Origin: Callorhinchus milii
Lineage: Eukaryota
Assembly: GCF_018977255.1 (NCBI RefSeq)
Contig: NW_024704742.1
Span: 62,870,001-62,934,000 of the forward strand
Direction of reading: 5' to 3'
Length of the DNA: 64,000 nucleotides
Shown here: piece by piece, positions 10,076 through 63,510 of the stretch
Layout of the letters: each line of letters starts with the position of its first letter
Position numbering within the stretch: position 1 is the first letter of the stretch
The notes under the pieces: generated by a model
Database searches by the model: none
Seen by the model: only the letters and a program-made list of their open reading frames with translations
Told to the model about the DNA's origin: nothing
Made by a program: the position numbers and the translations under genes

Positions 10076-10459
10076 ATAAGTTTGCTTTCAACAAAAATTA
10101 TTCAAGAAAATGCCTTGTGGGAGATATTTGAAATTCAGGTTTATTTCCTGAGCAGTCCTCAGAACCAACTCTAGTGCTCAGCAGAGAGCTGCTCAAGCTG
10201 AACAATATCCTTTCCATTCCTGGCCTAGGAGCAGCTGAGGCAAGAAACTTCAATACTAGGTACTGTTGTGTACACTGTAATGCTCCCAGGCCTGGTTGCA
10301 TCCTGATCATCACACTGGCAAAAAAGGATGCTGATTTGCATTCCTGCATATGGATCTGCATGCTGATAGATCCCATATGTTTAACAGCTTCCTGCAACGA
10401 CTGAAGATGTGCAAGAACGGATCTCCTTGCAAGATGAGAAACCTGAAATGAGAAACCTA

Positions 10460-10745
10460 CTAAAACCTGCTCCACTTGCCCCACTTCATTTCCCAGAACT
10501 AAATCCAGCACTGCTTTCTTCCTCGTTGGGCTGGAAACATGCTGATCCAGAAGGTTCTCCTGCACACATTTCAGGAATTCCTCCCCTTCCTTGCCCTTTA
10601 CATTATGTGTTTCCCCGTCTATGTTAGGATAATTGAAATGCCCCATTATCACTACTCTATTGGTTTTGTATCTCCGAAATCTGCTTGCAGATTTGCTCAT
10701 CTATCTCCTTCTCACTATTTGGAGGTCTATAGTAAACACCTAAAA
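10460..10745 (-). mobile_element. CR1 LINE ORF2 endonuclease fragment
   Basis: VVIMGHFNYPNID...EEFLKCVQENLLDQHVSSPTRKKAVLDLVLGNE matches the CR1 APE motifs GDFNYP and PTR..A.LDLVL.NE. Confidence 0.9.
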
Positions 10746-11032
10746 GTTCTTCTGAGGATTTCTGTAACTGACTGAATATGTGTAGGTGAACATCACAACA
10801 TGGAATATTTTGTTCAAAAGGGGATAATATTTACAATATTTGCTAATGTGGTTGTTTGCCTATAAGTACATCATCACTACTGTAAAATGTAAATACATTG
10901 GAGCACTCTTAGACATTTTAAAGTGATGAAATGCTCTATCAAATGCAAGAAATATTATTATTACCATAATAATATTATTATTATCTCCCCTTCCCTCCCT
11001 CACTCCATCTCCTCTTCTCTCCCTCCATCTCC

Positions 11033-12050
11033 CGCTTCGGGTTCTCTACAGTGGTGCTGGGTCTCAGAGAGCAGAACACTGTGCCATTGGGAGTGATTAT
11101 CAGAGTTACAGTGGGAGCTGGGATCACAGGAATAATCGCTCTGATCACCCTCATCTCCATCTTCTGACACTCAGCCAAGAGAGAAAAGGCCGTTTGACAT
11201 TCGAAGAGTGATATCCGCATCCAAATTGTTCCCAATGCCCAAATGTCTCCAAATCACAGAGGAGAGGATACCATCAGTCAATGGCTGGGAAAAGCGGATG
11301 TCCCAGGATGTCACAGACAGAGAACCATGAGATGTTTGAGGAAGACTTACTACACGCGCCTCTGTTTACCTAGCAGTAAATAGAAACCTGATTGTTAGTC
11401 GATTCCCGGATTGCTTTCCCGGGGGTAATAATCCCTCCAAAAAAATAATAAAAATAAATATAATAATAATTTGGTCACTCAATCCACGACTGTTTATGGG
11501 ACACTCATGGGCGTAATTGTCTGCCGCGTTTCTCCCAAAAACAGTCAATTCACTTTACAGTATATTCTTTGAGACATTTAGAAGACGTGATAAGGCGCAA
11601 TATCAAATGCAGGAATTATTAAGACTATGATTGTCTGAAGATGAAGGACCCCACAAATGGATGCTACAATGTGCACTTGGGCAAGGAAAGTGGTAGGTCA
11701 ACGTGGAATGGGTTCCTGGAGTACATCCCTTCCCCTCGGGGGGTCTTCGAAGCACCCTCAGCTTGACATGAAGGGCGGATGTACATCTCTGAGACGCCAT
11801 CTGAACATCTCCAAGCCTCACTAAACTCAGGGACTCCTAGAGTGAGGCTATGCCATAGACCCTATCTACAGCCACACGGCCTTCGTTCCAGCCCAGTTCA
11901 GCTGTGAGTATGTCACTCTTTCTGCATATGAGAGTGCAGAGGGCTGGGAGGAACATTCAGTTAGGTCCTTGCAACTCTGCTATCCATCCTCAAAAGCACT
12001 TATTGTATTATTGTTGAGCAACTCAACAGGGAATGCAAACACATGTGTGA
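11033..12050 (+). pseudogene. KIRREL: Processed pseudogene fragment of a KIRREL/NEPH-family Ig-superfamily receptor (end of Ig5, TM and whole cytoplasmic tail)
   Basis: Manual translation from 11033 gives RFGFSTVVLGLREQNTVPLGVIIRVTVGAGITGIIALITLISIF*HSAKREKAV*HSKSDIRIQIV. A frameshift leads to SMAGKSGCPRMSQTENHEMFEED, then a SINE, then DYDCLKMKDPTNGCYNVH (KDPTNGCYNV at 11644-11673), then AIDPIYSHTAFVPAQF, ending QQGMQTHV* (stop 12048-12050). KDPTNGYYxV and terminal MQTHV are KIRREL hallmarks. There are no introns, several in-frame TGA and frameshifts. Confidence 0.9.
11349..11620 (+). mobile_element. tRNA-Ala SINE (long, 5'-truncated) inserted in the KIRREL pseudogene
   Basis: SINE body and tail are present. 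The TSD AAGACT lies at 11342-11347 and 11621-11626, and the KIRREL frame (EED-YD) rejoins when the SINE is removed. Confidence 0.9.
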
Positions 12051-12089
12051 GAGAGACACCGTATCTCTATCTTTCCCCTGCTCCCCCCA

Positions 12090-12140
12090 CTCAATGTTGT
12101 GATGAAGTGCTATATCAAATGCAAGGATTATTATTGTTAT
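12090..12140 (+). mobile_element. L2/SINE-type 3' terminal tail capping the KIRREL retrocopy
   Basis: ctcaatgttgtgatgaagtgctatatcaaatgcaaggattattattgttat matches the SINE tail consensus in this window. Confidence 0.8.
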
Positions 12141-12547
12141 AAGCGCTCATTTCCTTTTGTGTTTTGTTATGAAACTTGTTCTATTTGCAAAGTAGCACAT
12201 TTTTATTTTGAAATTCCCCTTAAAGTGCAAAAAATAGCAAACAACAAACCAAACTATTTCACTTTCAATATTTTTTCATATTTCCTTTTGTGAACCTCAA
12301 AGCAGTCTGCAAATATCACAAATTGGCTCCCAAAGGATACTGAAACATTGGAGAGCTTTAGAGAAGAGTAACAAGGATGCATCTCTTATTTAGGGCTTTA
12401 AGCTTTTAGAATATTCTGTACTTGTTCTCACATAAAAAGACTGGAAGCAAAAATATTTCATGTGTTTAAAATGATGGGAAGTATAGTTAAATGTAGATAT
12501 AAACAGGCTTTTGGAATGACACTGTGAGAGCAGAACCAGTACAGATT

Positions 12548-12850
12548 TTAGCTTGGCTTAGTTAATACTCTTGCTCGTGGTCCAGAATGTTATGAGTTCA
12601 ACTTTACATTCAAATCTGAGCTCACTGTCTAGACTGATGCTCTGGGGAGTGTTGCCTTGTCAGAGATGCTGTCTTTTTGAAGAAACATTAAACTAAGGTA
12701 CCATCTTAAGGTACCATCTAAGGTACCGTCTGTTCTTCAGGTGGATGTTAATGATCCCATTCTACTATTTGAAAAAAGAGAAGAGAGCTTCTCCTGAGTG
12801 TCCAGGCAAACAATCCTAAATATTAATCAACTTGTTGCTTTTGGTGGGAC
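12548..12850 (+). mobile_element. Deu-domain SINE with an internal (taaggtaccatc)x3 tandem duplication
   Basis: Deu motifs are present; the 12-13 bp unit is repeated at ~12695-12731. Confidence 0.75.
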
Positions 12851-14274: not shown

Positions 14275-14613
14275 TTTCATTATTATATCCCTTCATGCCT
14301 TGGCACCTACTTACCTGTCTGGCCTGTTTACGCCCCAATCCACTACCCTTTGCCTCTGCTTCACTGGCTCCGGCCTCCTGCTTGTCCCTCGTATGCTCCG
14401 TTACACCATCGGTGGCCACACTTTCAGCCACAGCGCCGCGAAACTCTGCAACACTCTTCCTCTATCCCACTGCCTTGCCCCTTCCTTTCCCATCTTCAGG
14501 TCCCGCCTGAAAACCTTCCTTTTTGACAGTCACTTACCCCCGGCTCAGAATTGTGCTCTGGAATGCTACCCCTGTGTGAGAGGTGCTATATAAATGCAAG
14601 TTTTTTGTTGTTG
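14275..14613 (+). mobile_element. L2 3' end
   Basis: SLHALAPTYLSGL...TIGGHTFSHSAAKLCNTLP...FRSRLKTFLF, with tail tatataaatgcaagtt. Confidence 0.88.
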
Positions 14614-14694
14614 TATCACATTATTTTCATTTCACTTTCCTTACTCTTTCGGCATTACCTCTGTGAAACTCTTTGAGACATTATTCTACATGAA

Positions 14695-33499: not shown

Positions 33500-34492
33500 A
33501 ATATCTCACATCCATTCCCTGATCAGGACCCCCTTCCTCCACCTCTGCCAAATTTCCCGCCTCCAACCGTACCTTAATCCAAATACAACTAAAACCCTCG
33601 TGCATGCGTTTGTCACCTCCTCTCTGGATTACTCAAATGCACTCCTCGCTACCTCCCCAGCTCCACTATTCAAAATATCCAGCTCAATCAGAACTCTGCT
33701 GCCCACATACTGACCCGGACCAAACTCCGTACCCACATCTCATGGAGTCCTGTAGCTCAGTCGTTAAAGCACTCACCTTGCAAGTGAGATACCTGGGTTC
33801 AATTCCAGGCAGGGCAAAACCTTGGACAAGTTTCCTTACCCCACACGCCTAATAATAATCCCTCCAAAAAACAAAAACAATGATAAATTGGTCATTTTCA
33901 ATCCACGACTGTTTGTGGGACACTGCTGTGCGCAATTGGCTGCCACGTTTCGGCCACAAATATACGCTCAATTCACTTTACAGCATATCCTGTGAAGTGC
34001 TTTGAGATGTCTACAAGACGTGAAAAGCGCGATATCACATGCAAGGACTCTTATTATTATTATCTCACCAGTTCTGGCCAGGCTCCACTGGCTCCCCAAC
34101 ACCGAATATATCGACTTCAAGATCCTCACTTTCGTGTTCAAATCCCTTCCCTCTCTGGCACCTCCCTACCTCTCTAACTCCCCAAACCACCTGTCGGCGC
34201 CTCCGTTCAACTGGCACCAACCTCCTGCTTTGTCCCTCGCAACCTCCGCCCCATCATTGGAGGTTACACTCTCAGGCACTACATCCCGAAGCTCTGGAAC
34301 ACTCTCCCTGAATCTCCCCGCCTTGCTCCCTCTCTCCTCTTTTTCAAGAACCCCCCTGAAAAACTTGCTTTTCGACTGTGCGTACGGTTACCTCCCCCAC
34401 TCCCCCGACTCGGAGTCAGACTCTGCAACTGTTAAGTACCCTGAGATGCTAGCCTGAGTGGAGGGAGCTGTATAATTGCAGGTTGTTGTTAT
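33500..34492 (+). mobile_element. L2 3' portion interrupted by a full-length short-subfamily SINE (33744-34061)
   Basis: ISPVLARLHWLP..IDFKILTFVFKSL. The TSD ATCTCA lies at 33737-33742 and 34062-34067. Confidence 0.9.
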
Positions 34493-34552
34493 TGCTAAGG
34501 GTGTCCACATATGCTACAGGACTCCACAACTCCACTAAGTTAACCCAAATTT

Positions 34553-37950: not shown

Positions 37951-39545
37951 TGAGCATCTACAGCCTTCTGGGGTTCCATAAATTCACTACCCTCAAGGGT
38001 GAAGAAATGTTTCCTCAACTCTGTTCTAAAAAGGCTGACCCTTAATTTTAAGACTGTGACCGCTGGTTATAGATTCTCCTACCAGGGGAAACAATCCCTC
38101 AGTGTCTACTTTATCCAGCCCTTTAAGAATCTTATATGTTTCAATAAGATCTCCCCTTATTCTTCTGTACTCCAGAGAATATAGCCCTAGTTTATTCAGG
38201 CTATCCTCATAGGTCAGTCCCCTCATCCCAGGAACTACCTAGTGAATTTACGCAGCACCCCCTCTAGGGCAAGTATGTCCTTTTTTAAATAAGGAGACCA
38301 AAACTGCACACAATACTCTAGGTGCGGTCTCACCAAGGCCCTATACAGTTGCAGCAAGACTTCCCTACTCTTGTACCTTTTGCAATGAACGCTAACATGC
38401 TTCGCCTTCTTAGTTGCTTGCTGAACCTGCAATCTAACTTTTTGAGACTGGTGTACAAGGACACCCAAATCCCTCTGAACACTAACGCTATCTAATATCT
38501 CCCCCTCTAGAAAATAATCTGTTTTAATAATAATAATAATCCTTGCATTTGATATCGCGCTTTTCACGTCGGGAGGACGTCCCAAAGCGCTTCACAGAAC
38601 ACACTGTAAAGTGAATTGACTGTATATTTGTGGGCAAACGCGGCAGCCAATTGCGCACAGCAATGTCTCACAAACAGTCGTAGATTGAACATGACCAATT
38701 TATTATTGTTTTTGGTTTTGGAGGGATTATTATTAGGCTCTGTGTGGAGTAAGGAAACTTGCCCAAGGTTTTGCCCTCTGCCTGGAATTGAACTCGGGTC
38801 TCTCACTTGCAAAGCGAGTGCTCTAACCACTGAGCTACAGGACTCCAATTTTTTCTATTTTTTCTACCTAGGTGAATAACTTCACACGTCCCCACATTAA
38901 ATTCCATCTGCCACCTACTCGCCCACTCCCCGAGCCTATCTATATCCGTTGTGATCTTTTTGCATCATCCTCAGAGCTTACTCTCCCACCTAGTTTAGTA
39001 TCATCCGCGAATTTAGATACGTTACATTCAATGTCCGCGTCTAGATCATTGACGTAAATTGTAAATAGCTGAGGCCCAAGCACTGATCCTTGTGGCACTC
39101 CACTAGTCACATCCTGCCAATTCGAGAATGACCCATTTATCCCTACTCTTGGTTTTCTACCCATTAGCCACTCTTCAATCCATGTTCATATGTTACCATT
39201 AATCCCGTGGGCCTTAACCTTGTACAATAGCCTTTTGTGTGGCACTTTGTCAAATGCCTTCTTACAATCTAAATATACTACATCTACTGGTTCCCTCCTA
39301 TCTAACCTGCTAGATACATCTTCAAAAAACTCTAAAACATTAGTTGAGCATGACTTCCCTTTTGTAAAGCCATGTTGACTCTGCCTAATCTTTTTATGGT
39401 CTTCCAGGAATCCCATAACGGCATCCTTAATTAAGAACTCCCTACCACTGATGTCAGACTAACTGGTCTATAATTCCCCATCTTTTCTCTCCCACCCTTC
39501 TTAAATAGTGGTGTTACGTTTGCAATCTTCCAATCAATGGGAATC
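37951..39545 (-). mobile_element. CR1 RT segment lacking its 3' terminus, interrupted by a SINE
   Basis: DWKIANVTPLFKKG..NYRPVSLTSVVG; QHGFTKGKSC; VYLDCKKAFDKVPH; SGVPQGSVLGP; SKFADDTKLGG; LVRPHLEYCVQFWSP. Confidence 0.95.
38526..38846 (-). mobile_element. tRNA-Ala SINE, short subfamily, full length
   Basis: Head ggagtcctgtagctcagtggttagagcactcgctttgcaag; inserted in the CR1. Confidence 0.92.
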
Positions 39546-47349: not shown

Positions 47350-48138
47350 TGCCTCCACACCTCAGGTACTGGCAAGTTCACCATCTAAGGATGCACACAC
47401 CACCTCACTGAGCCAGTCTGGAGCCTTGGCATCTTGTTTGACACTCAACTGTCCTTTCTACGCCACATCCATGTCATAACCTGCTCTGCCTTCCCCCACC
47501 CCTGCAACATCACCTGGCTCCGCCACTGTTTCTCATCAAGCCACTGAAACCCTCATCCACGCATTTATCTAGGCTCGACCTCGCCAACTCCCTGCTTGTT
47601 GTCCTTTCCAACTCTTCCCTCACAAGCTGCAGATCATCCAGAACTCTGCAACTTGTGTCCTCTCACTCACCAGGCTCCGTGACCCTATCACCCCCATCCT
47701 CACCCGTCTCCACTGGCTCCTCATCCTGCAGAGGATAGAGTTCATCCTCACCTTCAAGGCCCTCTACCGGCTTGCTCCTTGCTACCACTGTGACCTGCTA
47801 AACCCCTATCACCTGCTGTCTACTCCATCCATTCAGCAGGCTTTGGCCTGCTTCACATCCCCCACCATGGCCGCCCCACCATCAGCGTTCAGACCTTCAG
47901 CCTCTCTGTCTCCACCCTTTGGAACACCATCCCACATTCCCTTTGCTTTACTCCCTCCCTTGCCTCCTTCAAGGAATGTCTCAAGACCTTCCTCTTCTGC
48001 TGCGCATTCGACCATCCTCCTACCTCTACCCTCCTCGCTCTCCAACCCCCTGATTCCAATCCCCAGCTCGGGTCCAAATCCCTGACCGTCCAACCGATGT
48101 GAAAGACGTTATACAAATGTAATTTGTTGTTGTTATTA
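47350..48138 (+). mobile_element. L2 3' portion
   Basis: gcagatcatccagaactctgc...ccccatcctcacccgtctccactggctc; tail tatacaaatgtaatttgttgttg. Confidence 0.88.
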
Positions 48139-60650: not shown

Positions 60651-62569
60651 ACAGCATTTTGGAGCCATAACATTGCTGTGCGCAATTGGCTGCCGCATTT
60701 CACTCACAAAATATACAGTCAATTCAGTTTGGAGTATATTCTGTGAAGCGCTTTAAGAGGTTTCAAAGATGTGATAAGGTGCTATAAAAAATGCAAGGAT
60801 TATTATTATTATGAGTACTGTGGCAGCATGGTGTAAGGTCACTGAATGATTCAATACAATCCTTCAGACCAAAGCAATTTGGCATGATATTAATGCAGGC
60901 AGTGGTTGAGGGGAGGCAGGAATTACTCCTCCAATTTCAGCAGAGAGGTAGGTACATTTCAGCATCCCGTTTGCTGGTGCCTTTGACAACACAGAATGAC
61001 GTTTCAGCCCAGCTAAATTTAGGATATTGGCTTAAGTGATACGGTATCTTGCAAGACAGCACTGAAGCGCTGATCCTAGAATAACTGGATCGCATTATTA
61101 CTGAGCAGGAATCCAAGCTGGCAGCAATCGTTACTGAAGCATCTGAGTGAAATCATGAGTTCCAAGATCTCAGGAAGGAATGAGCTAGAGAAGGAGGCAA
61201 TGCAATGAGTTTTGATAATGCCACAATGCGAATGCAGGTGGGCTTTAAACAAGAGTAGCAATAATCATAGTAAAATAAAGACAGGAAACATTGTCTTTAA
61301 GATAAAACATTTTTTAACAGCTGTCGCCTTGATATTGCCATACTTAACAGTTTCCAAGCCAGACTGAGACTTCCATATATGCTTACCACCTACTCATGAA
61401 AATTTCCTTGTGGCAGGAATTGAACGCACGCTCTCTTGTTGGAGGGACGCACCCTGTTTACCTAGTTCTGGAAATTATTAAGTGCAGATTCTCAAGAGGG
61501 TTAGAGAGTATAAACCAGAGACTGCCTAGTAGCTTGCCATGTTGTCAGTTGTCTTGTTGTAATAAATGTAACACTGTCGATTAACTCAAAATAAATGGGC
61601 TGTAGATTGACCCAGGGACATTGTCAGACATCAGTGAGATGAGGTTTTATTATAGAATGTATCATGTATATTCAATGACTGATAACCTTAGTAGGTGATG
61701 CATGATTTGGCATTGCAGCTAAGTTCCTATAGAGACAGCTCCCTGACTCTTTGAAGCCCTGCAGTGACACAGTGCTGTTGTGTGGATACATATTACTCCT
61801 TGGATTTTGTAAAATCAATGAATCTGGAAGACCGCATAATTGAACGTCTATCTTCCTGTAAACAGTATGTCAGATTAATCACTCTCTGGTCACTGGAAGG
61901 AGCCTGTGGTAACAATGTCCATAGTTACAGTTTCCTTCACAGCTATAGTTATTTTAATTGCTGTGAATGAGAGTAACATTCAACATATGATTGGTGTCAA
62001 TGAGAATTTCTTTGACATAGAATATAGACACAGCTGCTTTATCAAGGCTGAATATTTTGTTTTTGCAGCTTGCAAATCATTTGGAAAGTACAATTGCTGC
62101 TCCGTATTCTCCGATCACCATTCAGTATTAATACTTATAATGAGACTGCAACACATCCTCACATCCCAATCTCTTCTTGACCTCACTATTCTCTCTCCCA
62201 TTCGTGCTTCTCTGCCCATAGGAGAGAAGAGAGTAAAACTGAGAGGTTTTGCATTTTATTCTCTGTTATTTTATTGTATTGCATATATATTTATCCTAAA
62301 TATATATGTATATATATATTTCTGAGATGCTACCCCATTGTGAAGGGTGCTGTATGAATACAAGTTGTTGTATCTTTTATATTCTGTGTTCTATATTATC
62401 TTACCTTAAGTAGATCATAAATTAAAGTATGATTGGAAAATGAAACTGATGAAGTAGTCATTATTACCACCTTCTCTACACAAGGAACAAAATCCAGGTT
62501 TGTGAATTGTCTGTTCTGAGGCACTTTGGACTTGTTGAATTTACCTAACAGAAAGCAGAGCACACTGCG

Positions 62570-63510
62570 ACAACAACAACAACAAAGTTACATTTCTCTA
62601 GTGCCTTTTACATTGGGAGGACATCCCAAGGCTCTGGACAATCAGTGTTTCGGACCTGAGCTGTCCAGATTGGGGAGGGTGGAGGGCACGGGGGAAAGAG
62701 GGTGACCAAAGAGGAGGGTCTTGAGATGTGTCTTGAAGGAGGCAAGGGAGGGGGCAAGGTGGAGGGATGGCGGGATGGAGTTCCAGATGGTGAGGAGCAG
62801 AGTGGCTGAAGACGGGGTAGTGAAGCAGGCTGGAGCCCGCTGAACAGAGGGAGCAGGCAGGTTGGTAGGGGGTTAGGAGGTAGCAGAGGTAGAGGGGAGC
62901 AAGACCATGGAGGGCTTTGAAAGTGATGACCAGGATCTTGAACTGTATCCTCTGTGTGATGGGAAGCCAGTGGAGTCTGGCAAGGATGGGGGTGATAGGG
63001 TCCATGGAGCCTGGTGCAGGATAGGACACGGGCTGCAGAGTTCTGGATGATCGAAAATCTACAGAGAGAGGAGTTAGGGAAGCCAACAAGCAGTGAGTTT
63101 GCTTAGTCGAGCCTGGATGTTATGAATGCATGTATGAGGGTCTTGGGGCCTGTGGTGTGAGACAGTGGCGGAGCCAGGCGATGTTGAGGAGGTGGGGGAA
63201 GGCAGAGTGGGTCATGGCACAGATGTGGGGTAGAAAGGACGGTTGAGGTCAAGGTCTGGACTGGCTCATGAGGTGGAGTGTGCAACCATGGATGGTGATG
63301 TTGTCAGTGTTGAGGTGCTGACGGGAGCCAATCAGGAGAGCCTCGGTCTTGTTGGCGTTCAGCTGTAGAAAGTTAGCCCTTATCCAGGACTTGATGTCTG
63401 ACAGACATTCTGTCAGGACAGCAGTGGTCCTGGAGTGGAGGCAAAGAGATAGAGATGGGTGTCATCCGCACACACGTGGAATTTGACCCCATGTCTGCAG
63501 ATGATGTCAC
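62570..63510 (-). mobile_element. L2 3' portion
   Basis: KTLIHAFITSRLD; PITPILARLHWLPITQRIQFKILVITFKALHGLAPLYL. Confidence 0.92.

What the first reader, a model, noticed from the sequence alone, without database searches (positions are those of the whole stretch)
11033..12050. Hidden processed pseudogene of a KIRREL/NEPH receptor, absent from the ORF track
Seen in the sequence: in order, the end of an Ig domain (RFGFSTVVLGLREQ), a TM helix (VPLGVII.VTVGAGITGIIALITLISIF), SKSDIRIQIV, KDPTNGCYNV and a terminal QQGMQTHV*. Established knowledge: KDPTNGYYxV and the PDZ-binding THV end mark the KIRREL (NEPH) family, and this region is split over several exons in vertebrate KIRREL genes. Here it is contiguous, which indicates a retrocopy. 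The in-frame TGAs at 11165 and 11195 sit where Arg (CGA) is plausible, consistent with CpG decay. Inference from recalled sequences: SKSDIRxQIV and the acidic stretch before KDPTNG look closer to fish kirrel2/kirrel3-like paralogues than to KIRREL1. The copy may therefore record an expressed, poorly annotated chondrichthyan paralogue.
Basis: partly seen in the sequence, partly recalled or inferred. Interest (0 to 1): 0.8.

Follow-up and report, generated by a model that had tools for sequence, protein, structure and literature searches.

The report
Dead spliced copy of KIRREL2 gene
This is an old, broken, intron-less copy of the end of the mRNA for the kidney and brain adhesion receptor KIRREL2 in a cartilaginous-fish genome; it is an ordinary gene fossil, useful mainly because it points to a probably living parent gene that this genome assembly lacks.

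Summary
Confirmed, and mostly ordinary. Window 11033-12050 is a 5'-truncated processed pseudogene. It aligns to residues 244-495 of P0003, an unnamed KIRREL protein (144 of 245 codons identical; five stops, three frameshifts). It runs unbroken across all four intron positions mapped in this genome's KIRREL3. A SINE with a 6-nt target duplication (11348-11620) entered later. Trees join the copy to P0003 (100/100) inside KIRREL2/kirrel3l, next to the shark Heptranchias; that orthology is likely but not statistically firm. No intron-bearing parent was found in the assembly, nor KIRREL1. One DNA run of the species holds a second contig with P0003's residue, apparently laid in pieces that break at predicted exon joints. 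So the parent probably exists unassembled. One correction: the stop at 11165 replaces Cys, not Arg. How the copy was primed is open: a 50-nt SINE tail 40 nt after the stop (template-switch chimera) or an A-rich tract at 12229 (decayed poly(A)). Earlier scan notes hold no KIRREL finding.

The parts
11033..11075 (+). Last part of the Ig5 exon; the copy begins mid-exon (5' truncation)
   Evidence: Aligns from P0003 residue 244/245. The homologous KIRREL3 exon is 199 nt and ends in phase 1. No upstream ectodomain match in the window at E<0.05 with four queries.
11076..11182 (+). Transmembrane exon remnant, joined to the Ig5 exon without an intron; TGA at 11165 in place of Cys289
11183..11283 (+). 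Juxtamembrane exon remnant (SKSDIRIQIV); TGA at 11195 in place of Arg300; frameshift near 11271. The right border is approximate because the alignment is poor there.
   Evidence: a second contig in run X3 laid on 11182-11253
11284..11646 (+). Acidic-stretch exon remnant, interrupted by the SINE
11348..11620 (+). 5'-truncated copy of an abundant SINE, inserted after the retrocopy formed; target duplication AAGACT at 11342-11347 and 11621-11626
   Evidence: 279-nt gap against P0003; 70-82% matches to many window copies; 25 of 269 columns differ from the consensus of 31 local matches. It lies inside an exon, not at an intron position.
11647..12050 (+). Last exon remnant, DPTNGCYNV to MQTHV*; stops at 11822, 11843 and 12015; frameshifts near 11764 and 11996
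   Evidence: KIRREL3's last exon starts at the same DPTNG in phase 0
12051..12089 (+). Probable start of the 3' UTR (inferred; parent UTR not available)
   Evidence: no repeat match in the window or the genome
12090..12140 (+). About 50-nt 3' tail of the same SINE family, same strand, ending in (TTA)n; lacks the 5' arm of the tail's stem-loop. Either the priming end of a chimera or an independent insertion.
12229..12255 (+). A-rich tract (18 of 27 A), possibly a decayed poly(A) tail
   Evidence: 12 such places in the window. The genome search of 12141-12720 listed repeat matches only from about 12457 on.
10899..11032 (+). 5' flank: another SINE tail with (TTA)n, then a C/T-rich tract up to the junction; not KIRREL-derived

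Best explanation
A spliced mRNA of the KIRREL2 (NEPH3/kirrel3l) gene was reverse-transcribed in the germ line by a LINE-encoded enzyme (enzyme inferred). The cDNA stopped early inside the Ig5 exon and was inserted on contig C1, with no other KIRREL exons in the 64-kb window (shown). Without promoter, signal peptide or ectodomain it was dead on arrival (inferred). It then decayed, gaining five stops and three frameshifts, and later received a SINE (shown). It makes no protein. The intron-bearing parent, best represented by P0003, very probably still exists in the species but is missing from this assembly, as KIRREL1 is (absence shown within the limits of the search; existence inferred from one run). 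Component odds: KIRREL-derived >0.99; processed copy 0.93; KIRREL2 lineage 0.88; parent present but unassembled 0.8.
For: Collinear alignment to P0003 244-495, 144 of 245 codons identical. Four GT-AG introns mapped in the KIRREL3 locus C25:200109-204153(-); all four positions are contiguous in the window. Window+P0003 100/100, sister to Heptranchias kirrel3l 90/85. Without P0003 the copy still joins Heptranchias, 93/91. Descent from the assembled KIRREL3 is rejected, p-AU 1e-109. Diagnostic columns in the copied part: 9 of 23 KIRREL2-type, 2 of 40 KIRREL3-type, 3 of 27 KIRREL1-type. Decay reaches conserved columns: only 39 of 55 are kept. Searches of the genome with P0003, P0007, P0008, P0098 and P0109 found only C25 and the window as KIRREL-like loci. 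In run X3 a second contig (depth 6.99, beside 10.6 and 7.2 for the copy itself) differs at 11215, 11218 and 11219: two synonymous changes, and one giving P0003's DIRVQ. Its piece spans 11182-11253. Depth arithmetic implies further pieces ending near 11182 and 11073, the predicted exon joints. Genes in GC-rich regions, nephrin among them, have been falsely reported missing in chicken (PMC5470226, passages).
Against: The parent's own exon-intron map was not seen; introns were mapped on a paralogue, and the third joint lies in a poorly aligned stretch. No convincing target duplication or poly(A) signal for the whole copy. On the copied columns the AU test does not reject placing window+P0003 with KIRREL3 (p 0.107) or KIRREL1 (p 0.371). 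On all P0003 columns it rejects KIRREL3 (0.025) but not KIRREL1 (0.068). In P0003's ectodomain the diagnostic columns are mixed: 5 of 13 K2, 4 of 28 K3, 6 of 11 K1, and the ectodomain-only tree is weak, 57/74. The X3 evidence is one contig in one run plus arithmetic on binned depths. The V is also the state shared by the KIRREL2 orthologues shown. Extra depth in two bins stays unexplained. The genome searches score only the best candidates (42 of 42, 63 of 63, 58 of 95, 61 of 94, 60 of 100).
Confidence: 0.75

Rival explanations
1. Orphan retrocopy: a processed copy whose parent was lost in this species. P0003 would come from a related species, and the second X3 contig would be another dead copy or an allele.
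For: No parent in five protein and two DNA searches of the assembly. P0003 is the derived one at 15 of 53 polarised differences.
Against: KIRREL1 is also absent from the assembly, which points to gaps. The X3 contig's three visible differences are two synonymous changes and one matching P0003, and its pieces appear to break at exon joints. That fits a constrained, intron-bearing gene better than an allele.
Confidence: 0.12
2. The parent is a fourth KIRREL lineage (an extra ohnologue) or a very divergent KIRREL1, not the KIRREL2 orthologue.
For: Long stem (0.79 changes per column). AU tests leave a basal or KIRREL1-side position unrejected. Mixed diagnostic columns in P0003's ectodomain.
Against: The top-scoring relatives of P0003 are nearly all named kirrel3-like or KIRREL2. 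The full-length tree puts it in that group at 94/98. 13 of 23 KIRREL2-diagnostic columns are matched in the copied part, against 2 of 45 and 4 of 30.
Confidence: 0.08
3. DNA-level duplicate or decayed remnant of a gene that had already lost these introns, or a once-functional retrogene.
For: The parent's introns were not observed. No clear poly(A) or target duplication.
Against: The copy starts mid-exon with no upstream exons in the window. The only intact KIRREL in the assembly keeps all four introns. The X3 pieces appear to break at the joints.
Confidence: 0.05
4. How it was primed, option A (odds given a retrocopy): a template-switch chimera. A stringent LINE enzyme began on a SINE RNA, copied about 50 nt of its tail, and jumped to the KIRREL2 mRNA 40 nt after the stop codon.
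For: A same-strand tail-only fragment sits 40 nt after the stop. The chance of any same-strand tail within 100-200 nt of a random point is about 0.03-0.05, and of a short one about 0.005-0.009 (chosen after the fact). The fragment starts inside the tail's stem-loop, so it is not a whole cis-signal carried by the parent. Platypus U6-L2 and U6-Mon-1 chimeras have this anatomy: a 5'-truncated RNA upstream of a short L2 piece, with 1-9 bp duplications (PMC4476161, section 10 read).
Against: Short tail fragments are common here, 9 of 41. Three same-strand tails lie within 1.2 kb, so local density is high. No target duplication was found except an AT-rich (TTA)n match. An A-rich tract further on suggests the copy continues.
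Confidence: 0.35
5. How it was primed, option B (odds given a retrocopy): ordinary poly(A)-primed copying ending at 12229-12255. The SINE tail at 12090-12140 would be an independent insertion, or one already in the parent's UTR.
For: A-rich tract, 18 of 27 A; chance within 400 nt about 0.07. No repeat match was listed for 12141-12456. The same SINE family demonstrably inserted into this copy once.
Against: No exact AATAAA or ATTAAA just upstream. No target duplication. Processed pseudogenes are said to be rare where stringent LINEs dominate (PMC4476161). Whether a relaxed L1-type element was active here was not tested.
Confidence: 0.4

Closest known systems
Processed pseudogenes (retrocopies) of vertebrates, e.g. 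the 472 described in coelacanth (PMC4641402, passages)
   Same: Intron-less, 5'-truncated, disabled copy of the 3' part of an mRNA.
   Different: No clear poly(A) or target duplication survives. The parent was not found in the assembly, so parent-based pipelines would probably miss it (inference).
KIRREL2 / NEPH3 / kirrel3l; nearest named relative of P0003 is Heptranchias perlo kirrel3l (P0008, 50%)
   Same: Ig5 end, TM helix, SKSDIR motif, acidic stretch, DPTNG motif and C-terminal THV (THV is the PDZ-binding end of KIRREL3 in PMC4269076, passage).
   Different: The window copy is non-coding and has no ectodomain. The P0003 lineage has a shortened, faster-evolving tail: 45% identity to Heptranchias over TM and tail, against 52-56% for three bony-fish orthologues.
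U6-L2 / U6-Mon-1 template-switch chimeras of platypus and lizard (PMC4476161, section 10 read)
   Same: 5'-truncated cellular RNA copy directly upstream of a short same-strand SINE/LINE 3' tail ending in a simple repeat.
   Different: The cargo here is a spliced protein-coding mRNA. It is a single case, and an independent insertion is not excluded.
Genes falsely missing from assemblies, such as chicken NPHS1 (PMC5470226, passages); KIRREL2 and NPHS1 were listed as missing in birds (PMC4290089, passages)
   Same: A KIRREL2-type gene is absent from the assembly while other data suggest that it exists.
   Different: Here the clue is a retrocopy. The GC content of the parent locus was not measured.

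Membership tests
Processed pseudogene | Exons joined without introns at the parent's intron positions | tested here: met
   4 of 4 intron positions of the paralogue KIRREL3 (C25) are contiguous in the window. Tested on the paralogue, not the parent; the third joint is approximate.
Processed pseudogene | Disabling mutations and decay | tested here: met
   5 stops, 3 frameshifts, SINE insertion; 16 of 55 conserved columns changed.
Processed pseudogene | 5' truncation with 3' end retained | tested here: met
   Starts mid-Ig5 exon and ends at the native stop; no upstream exons in the window.
Processed pseudogene | Poly(A) remnant | tested here: inconclusive
   A-rich tract at 12229-12255; 12 such places in 64 kb.
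Processed pseudogene | Target-site duplication around the whole copy | tested here: inconclusive
   Only SINE-tail and low-complexity matches of 9 nt or more between the flanks; the ends are old and uncertain.
Processed pseudogene | Intron-bearing parent at another locus | tested here: inconclusive
   Not found in the assembly; indirect sign in one DNA run.
Functional KIRREL/NEPH receptor | Five Ig domains and an open reading frame | tested here: not met
   Only about 15 ectodomain residues and a broken frame. Filed as derived from KIRREL, not as a receptor.
KIRREL-derived sequence | Best hits in the family; TM, DPTNG motif and terminal THV in order | tested here: met
KIRREL2/kirrel3l orthologue group | Groups with KIRREL2/kirrel3l in trees and shares its diagnostic residues | tested here: met
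   Best trees; 9 of 23 against 2 of 40 and 3 of 27 diagnostic columns.
KIRREL2/kirrel3l orthologue group | Alternative placements statistically rejected | tested here: inconclusive
   p-AU 0.107 and 0.371 on the copied columns; 0.025 and 0.068 on all P0003 columns.
KIRREL2/kirrel3l orthologue group | Parent next to NPHS1 (recalled) | not testable with these tools
   Parent locus not assembled; no nephrin sequence came up.
Template-switch chimera with a SINE/LINE tail | Short same-strand LINE/SINE 3' end directly after the RNA copy | tested here: met
   12090-12140, 40 nt after the stop.
Template-switch chimera with a SINE/LINE tail | One short target duplication enclosing both parts, and RNA similarity ending at the tail | tested here: inconclusive
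   No distinctive duplication; parent UTR unavailable.

The most novel reading that the evidence does not exclude
A spliced protein-coding mRNA (KIRREL2) was retroposed by a stringent, tail-recognising LINE through template switching from a SINE RNA. This would be a route to gene retrocopies in genomes dominated by L2/CR1-type elements. The copy would also be the only assembled trace of a fast-evolving KIRREL2 in this lineage, keeping ancestral residues at 15 sites where P0003 has since changed.
Probability: 0.3. Interest if true: 0.5.

Novelty: new member of a known kind. Interest (0 to 1): 0.27.

Why it matters
As a single pseudogene it matters little. It has three practical uses. It warns that KIRREL2 (and KIRREL1) should not be scored as lost in this lineage on the basis of this assembly. 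It records that the KIRREL2 mRNA reached a germ-line reverse transcriptase, and it preserves an older state of a fast-changing cytoplasmic tail (15 sites where the copy matches outgroups and P0003 does not). If the SINE tail is the priming end, it would extend template-switch chimeras from small RNAs to a protein-coding mRNA in a cartilaginous fish, which can be tested once the parent's 3' UTR is known.

Tried and rejected
Searches that found nothing.
- Word-based protein search with the first 105 codons: 0 of 88 candidates passed.
- Pfam and PDB on the decayed pieces: nothing significant.
- The weak second hit at C10:17249121 (E 0.068) showed no KIRREL motif in the three + frames that I translated; treated as noise.
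- P0004 and P0006 are repeat-driven false hits.
- The structure-atlas look-up was not obtained, so it contributes nothing.
- No nephrin sequence came up to use as a control for the missing region.
- No host gene was detected: Pfam on 82 of the 94 open frames of 85 codons or more found only retroelement domains in 2. Short exons would be missed.

Readings considered and rejected.
- The pyrimidine tract plus CAG near 11051 as a splice acceptor: rejected, because homology to P0003 runs through it.
- The insert at 11348-11620 as an intron: rejected; it is a SINE with a target duplication and lies inside an exon.
- C25 as the parent: rejected; it is KIRREL3 (94% to frog KIRREL3-type P0007 in Ig5; p-AU 1e-109).

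Expression. No RNA holder was listed. Three runs guessed to be RNA gave no cover of the unique parts at 80% likeness. The tissues are unknown, so this says nothing about expression of the copy or the parent. I laid 4 of the 13 listed runs; the SINE swamped the joint and loose-end tables.

Literature. 'kirrel'+'Callorhinchus' gave 2 papers (listing only, not opened, neither title on this subject). Retrocopy searches gave 6, 3 and 5 papers. No title or passage that I saw describes this copy. Subscription papers and supplements were not seen, so an annotation table could list it.

Full report
Observation. The window is G000:C1:62870001-62934000 of a 991.5-Mb assembly. Earlier scan notes call this genome elephant shark; I did not check that. 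Its KIRREL3 groups with shark and ray sequences at 96/96. A profile search of the first 105 codons against 1.84 billion proteins gave 5 hits. Two more are KIRREL3-type proteins of a bird and a frog, and two are repeat-driven false hits. P0003 has Ig domains, a TM helix, KDPTNGYYNV and QQRMQTHV. Its top relatives are nearly all named kirrel3-like or KIRREL2, led by the shark Heptranchias at 50% (120 of 824 hits listed).

Anatomy. A frameshift-aware alignment covers P0003 244-495 on window 11030-12047, with 144 of 245 codons identical. Stops lie at 11165 (Cys289), 11195 (Arg300), 11822, 11843 (Arg427) and 12015; frameshifts near 11271, 11764 and 11996; and there is one 279-nt gap. The gap is a 5'-truncated SINE (11348-11620) plus one copy of the duplication AAGACT. 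It differs from the consensus of 31 local matches at 25 of 269 columns. The copy begins in the middle of the Ig5 exon. Four ectodomain queries found nothing in the window better than E 0.05.

Intron test. The only intact KIRREL found in the assembly is at C25:200109-214717(-) and is KIRREL3. Over the copied interval it has four GT-AG introns: Ig5|TM (phase 1), TM|juxtamembrane (phase 1), juxtamembrane|acidic (phase 0) and acidic|DPTNG (phase 0). Projected through the alignment they fall at 11075|11076, 11182|11183, about 11283|11284 and 11646|11647, and each is contiguous in the window. This is the main evidence for a processed copy. It rests on the paralogue's introns; that KIRREL paralogues share intron positions is recalled knowledge.

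Which gene. In a 26-row tree of the copied columns the window joins P0003 at 100/100, and both join Heptranchias kirrel3l at 90/85, on the KIRREL2/kirrel3l side (81/81). Without P0003 the copy still joins Heptranchias (93/91, long branch). Identity of the copy is 60% to P0003, 38% to Heptranchias, 28-35% to other KIRREL2/kirrel3l rows, 24-25% to KIRREL3 and 25-28% to KIRREL1. Group-diagnostic columns favour KIRREL2: 9 of 23, against 2 of 40 and 3 of 27. Results against firmness follow. On 19 of the 26 rows, AU tests do not reject window+P0003 with KIRREL3 (p 0.107) or KIRREL1 (0.371), though they reject window+C25 (1e-109). With all P0003 columns (18 rows) the group is 94/98, KIRREL3 is rejected (0.025) and KIRREL1 is not (0.068). 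P0003's ectodomain alone is weakly placed (57/74), and its diagnostic columns are mixed. Rows were picked by me from the 120 listed; KIRREL1 has only three.

Where the parent is. DNA searches with both unique parts found only the window. Protein searches with P0003, P0007, P0008, P0098 and P0109 found only C25, the window and weak generic Ig hits (in three of them only 58-61 of 94-100 candidates were scored). So both KIRREL2 and KIRREL1 appear to be missing, which suggests assembly gaps. Five runs of organism A hold the stretch. I laid 4 of the 13 listed runs at 80% likeness. In X3 the copy itself is covered by contigs of depth 10.6 and 7.2. A second contig of depth 6.99 differs at 11215, 11218 and 11219, two synonymous changes and one that turns DIRIQ into P0003's DIRVQ; by the distances reported, its piece spans 11182-11253. 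If the extra depth in neighbouring bins has the same value, it implies a piece of about 11134-11182 and one ending near 11073. These ends match the first two predicted exon joints, as exons of an intron-bearing parent would. This is one contig plus arithmetic on bin means; extra depth in two bins remains unexplained, and an allele or a second dead copy is not excluded. Chicken nephrin was recovered from RNA after being reported lost, and such genes cluster in GC-rich regions (PMC5470226, passages). KIRREL2 was on the same list of 'missing' bird genes (PMC4290089, passages).

Decay and age. At columns conserved in at least 90% of KIRREL2 rows the copy keeps 39 of 55; elsewhere 105 of 193. A crude neutral simulation gives 74% and 65% protein identity at 14% and 19% nucleotide difference, so the copy's own drift is roughly 15% (8 replicates, assumed codon use). 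That is older than the inserted SINE (9%). Of 53 polarisable differences, the copy is ancestral at 15 and P0003 at 38, so the parent lineage also changed after the copy was made. The aligned codons hold 14 CpG against 58 TpG and 69 CpA. No absolute age is claimed.

How it was primed. Two features compete. A 50-nt tail of the same SINE family lies on the same strand 40 nt after the stop; it starts inside the stem-loop that complete tails form. This resembles platypus U6-L2/Mon-1 chimeras, where a 5'-truncated RNA precedes a short L2 piece and processed pseudogenes are otherwise rare (PMC4476161, passages and section 10). Stringent LINE/SINE tail sharing is reviewed in PMC3747384 (passages). But 9 of 41 tails in the window are short, three same-strand tails lie within 1.2 kb, and the after-the-fact chance is 0.5-5%. 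An A-rich tract at 12229-12255 could be a decayed poly(A), with a chance of about 7%, and 12141-12456 had no repeat match listed. No distinctive target duplication supports either end. I put poly(A) priming at 0.4, chimera at 0.35 and unresolved other routes at 0.25. Earlier notes on this genome report both a one-off 7SK-CR1 chimera and a pseudogene that merely abuts an unrelated insert (unchecked).

Verdict. A new member of a known kind: an old processed pseudogene of the KIRREL2 lineage. Retrocopies are common enough in non-mammalian vertebrates (472 in coelacanth, PMC4641402, passages) that this one would not surprise a specialist. Also read as passages: PMC3022923 and PMC4269076. Other papers were seen as search listings only; no supplements were read. 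Interest 0.27.

Noticed in passing
G000 as a whole: KIRREL1 was not found in the assembly with shark/ray and coelacanth queries; only KIRREL3 is assembled.
   Followed up: partly
protein P0003 (UPI0003D7F2D9): The likely parent has a shortened, fast-evolving cytoplasmic tail (45% to Heptranchias over TM and tail, against 52-56% for bony-fish orthologues) and mixed paralogue-diagnostic residues in its ectodomain.
   Followed up: partly
G000:C25:207108-207200 (-), in L018: A near-identical second copy of the end of a KIRREL3 Ig exon lies in the intron just downstream of that exon; tandem duplication or assembly artefact.
   Followed up: no
L021:4463-6427 (-), G000:C11:5341463-5343427: A 654-codon open frame of tandem Ig domains; it resembles the large last exon of an MXRA5/IGSF10-type gene (name recalled, not from a call).
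   Followed up: no
window 10101-10700 (-) and 39189-39458 (-): LINE remnants: an endonuclease-like piece (PF14529, E 2.9e-4, below cut-off) and a reverse-transcriptase piece (PF00078, E 1.8e-8).
   Followed up: no
window 14480-14620, 34300-34500, 47980-48130 (+), 62540-62700 (-): LINE-like 3' ends whose terminal motif resembles the SINE tail but ends in (TTG)n rather than (TTA)n; the partner LINE of the SINE was not identified.
   Followed up: partly
window 11191 and 11877: Single-letter differences between the assembly and run X3's contigs of the copy, probably polymorphisms.
   Followed up: no
window 12693-12731: Three tandem copies of a 12-13-nt unit inside another repeat family that starts near 12550.
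   Followed up: no
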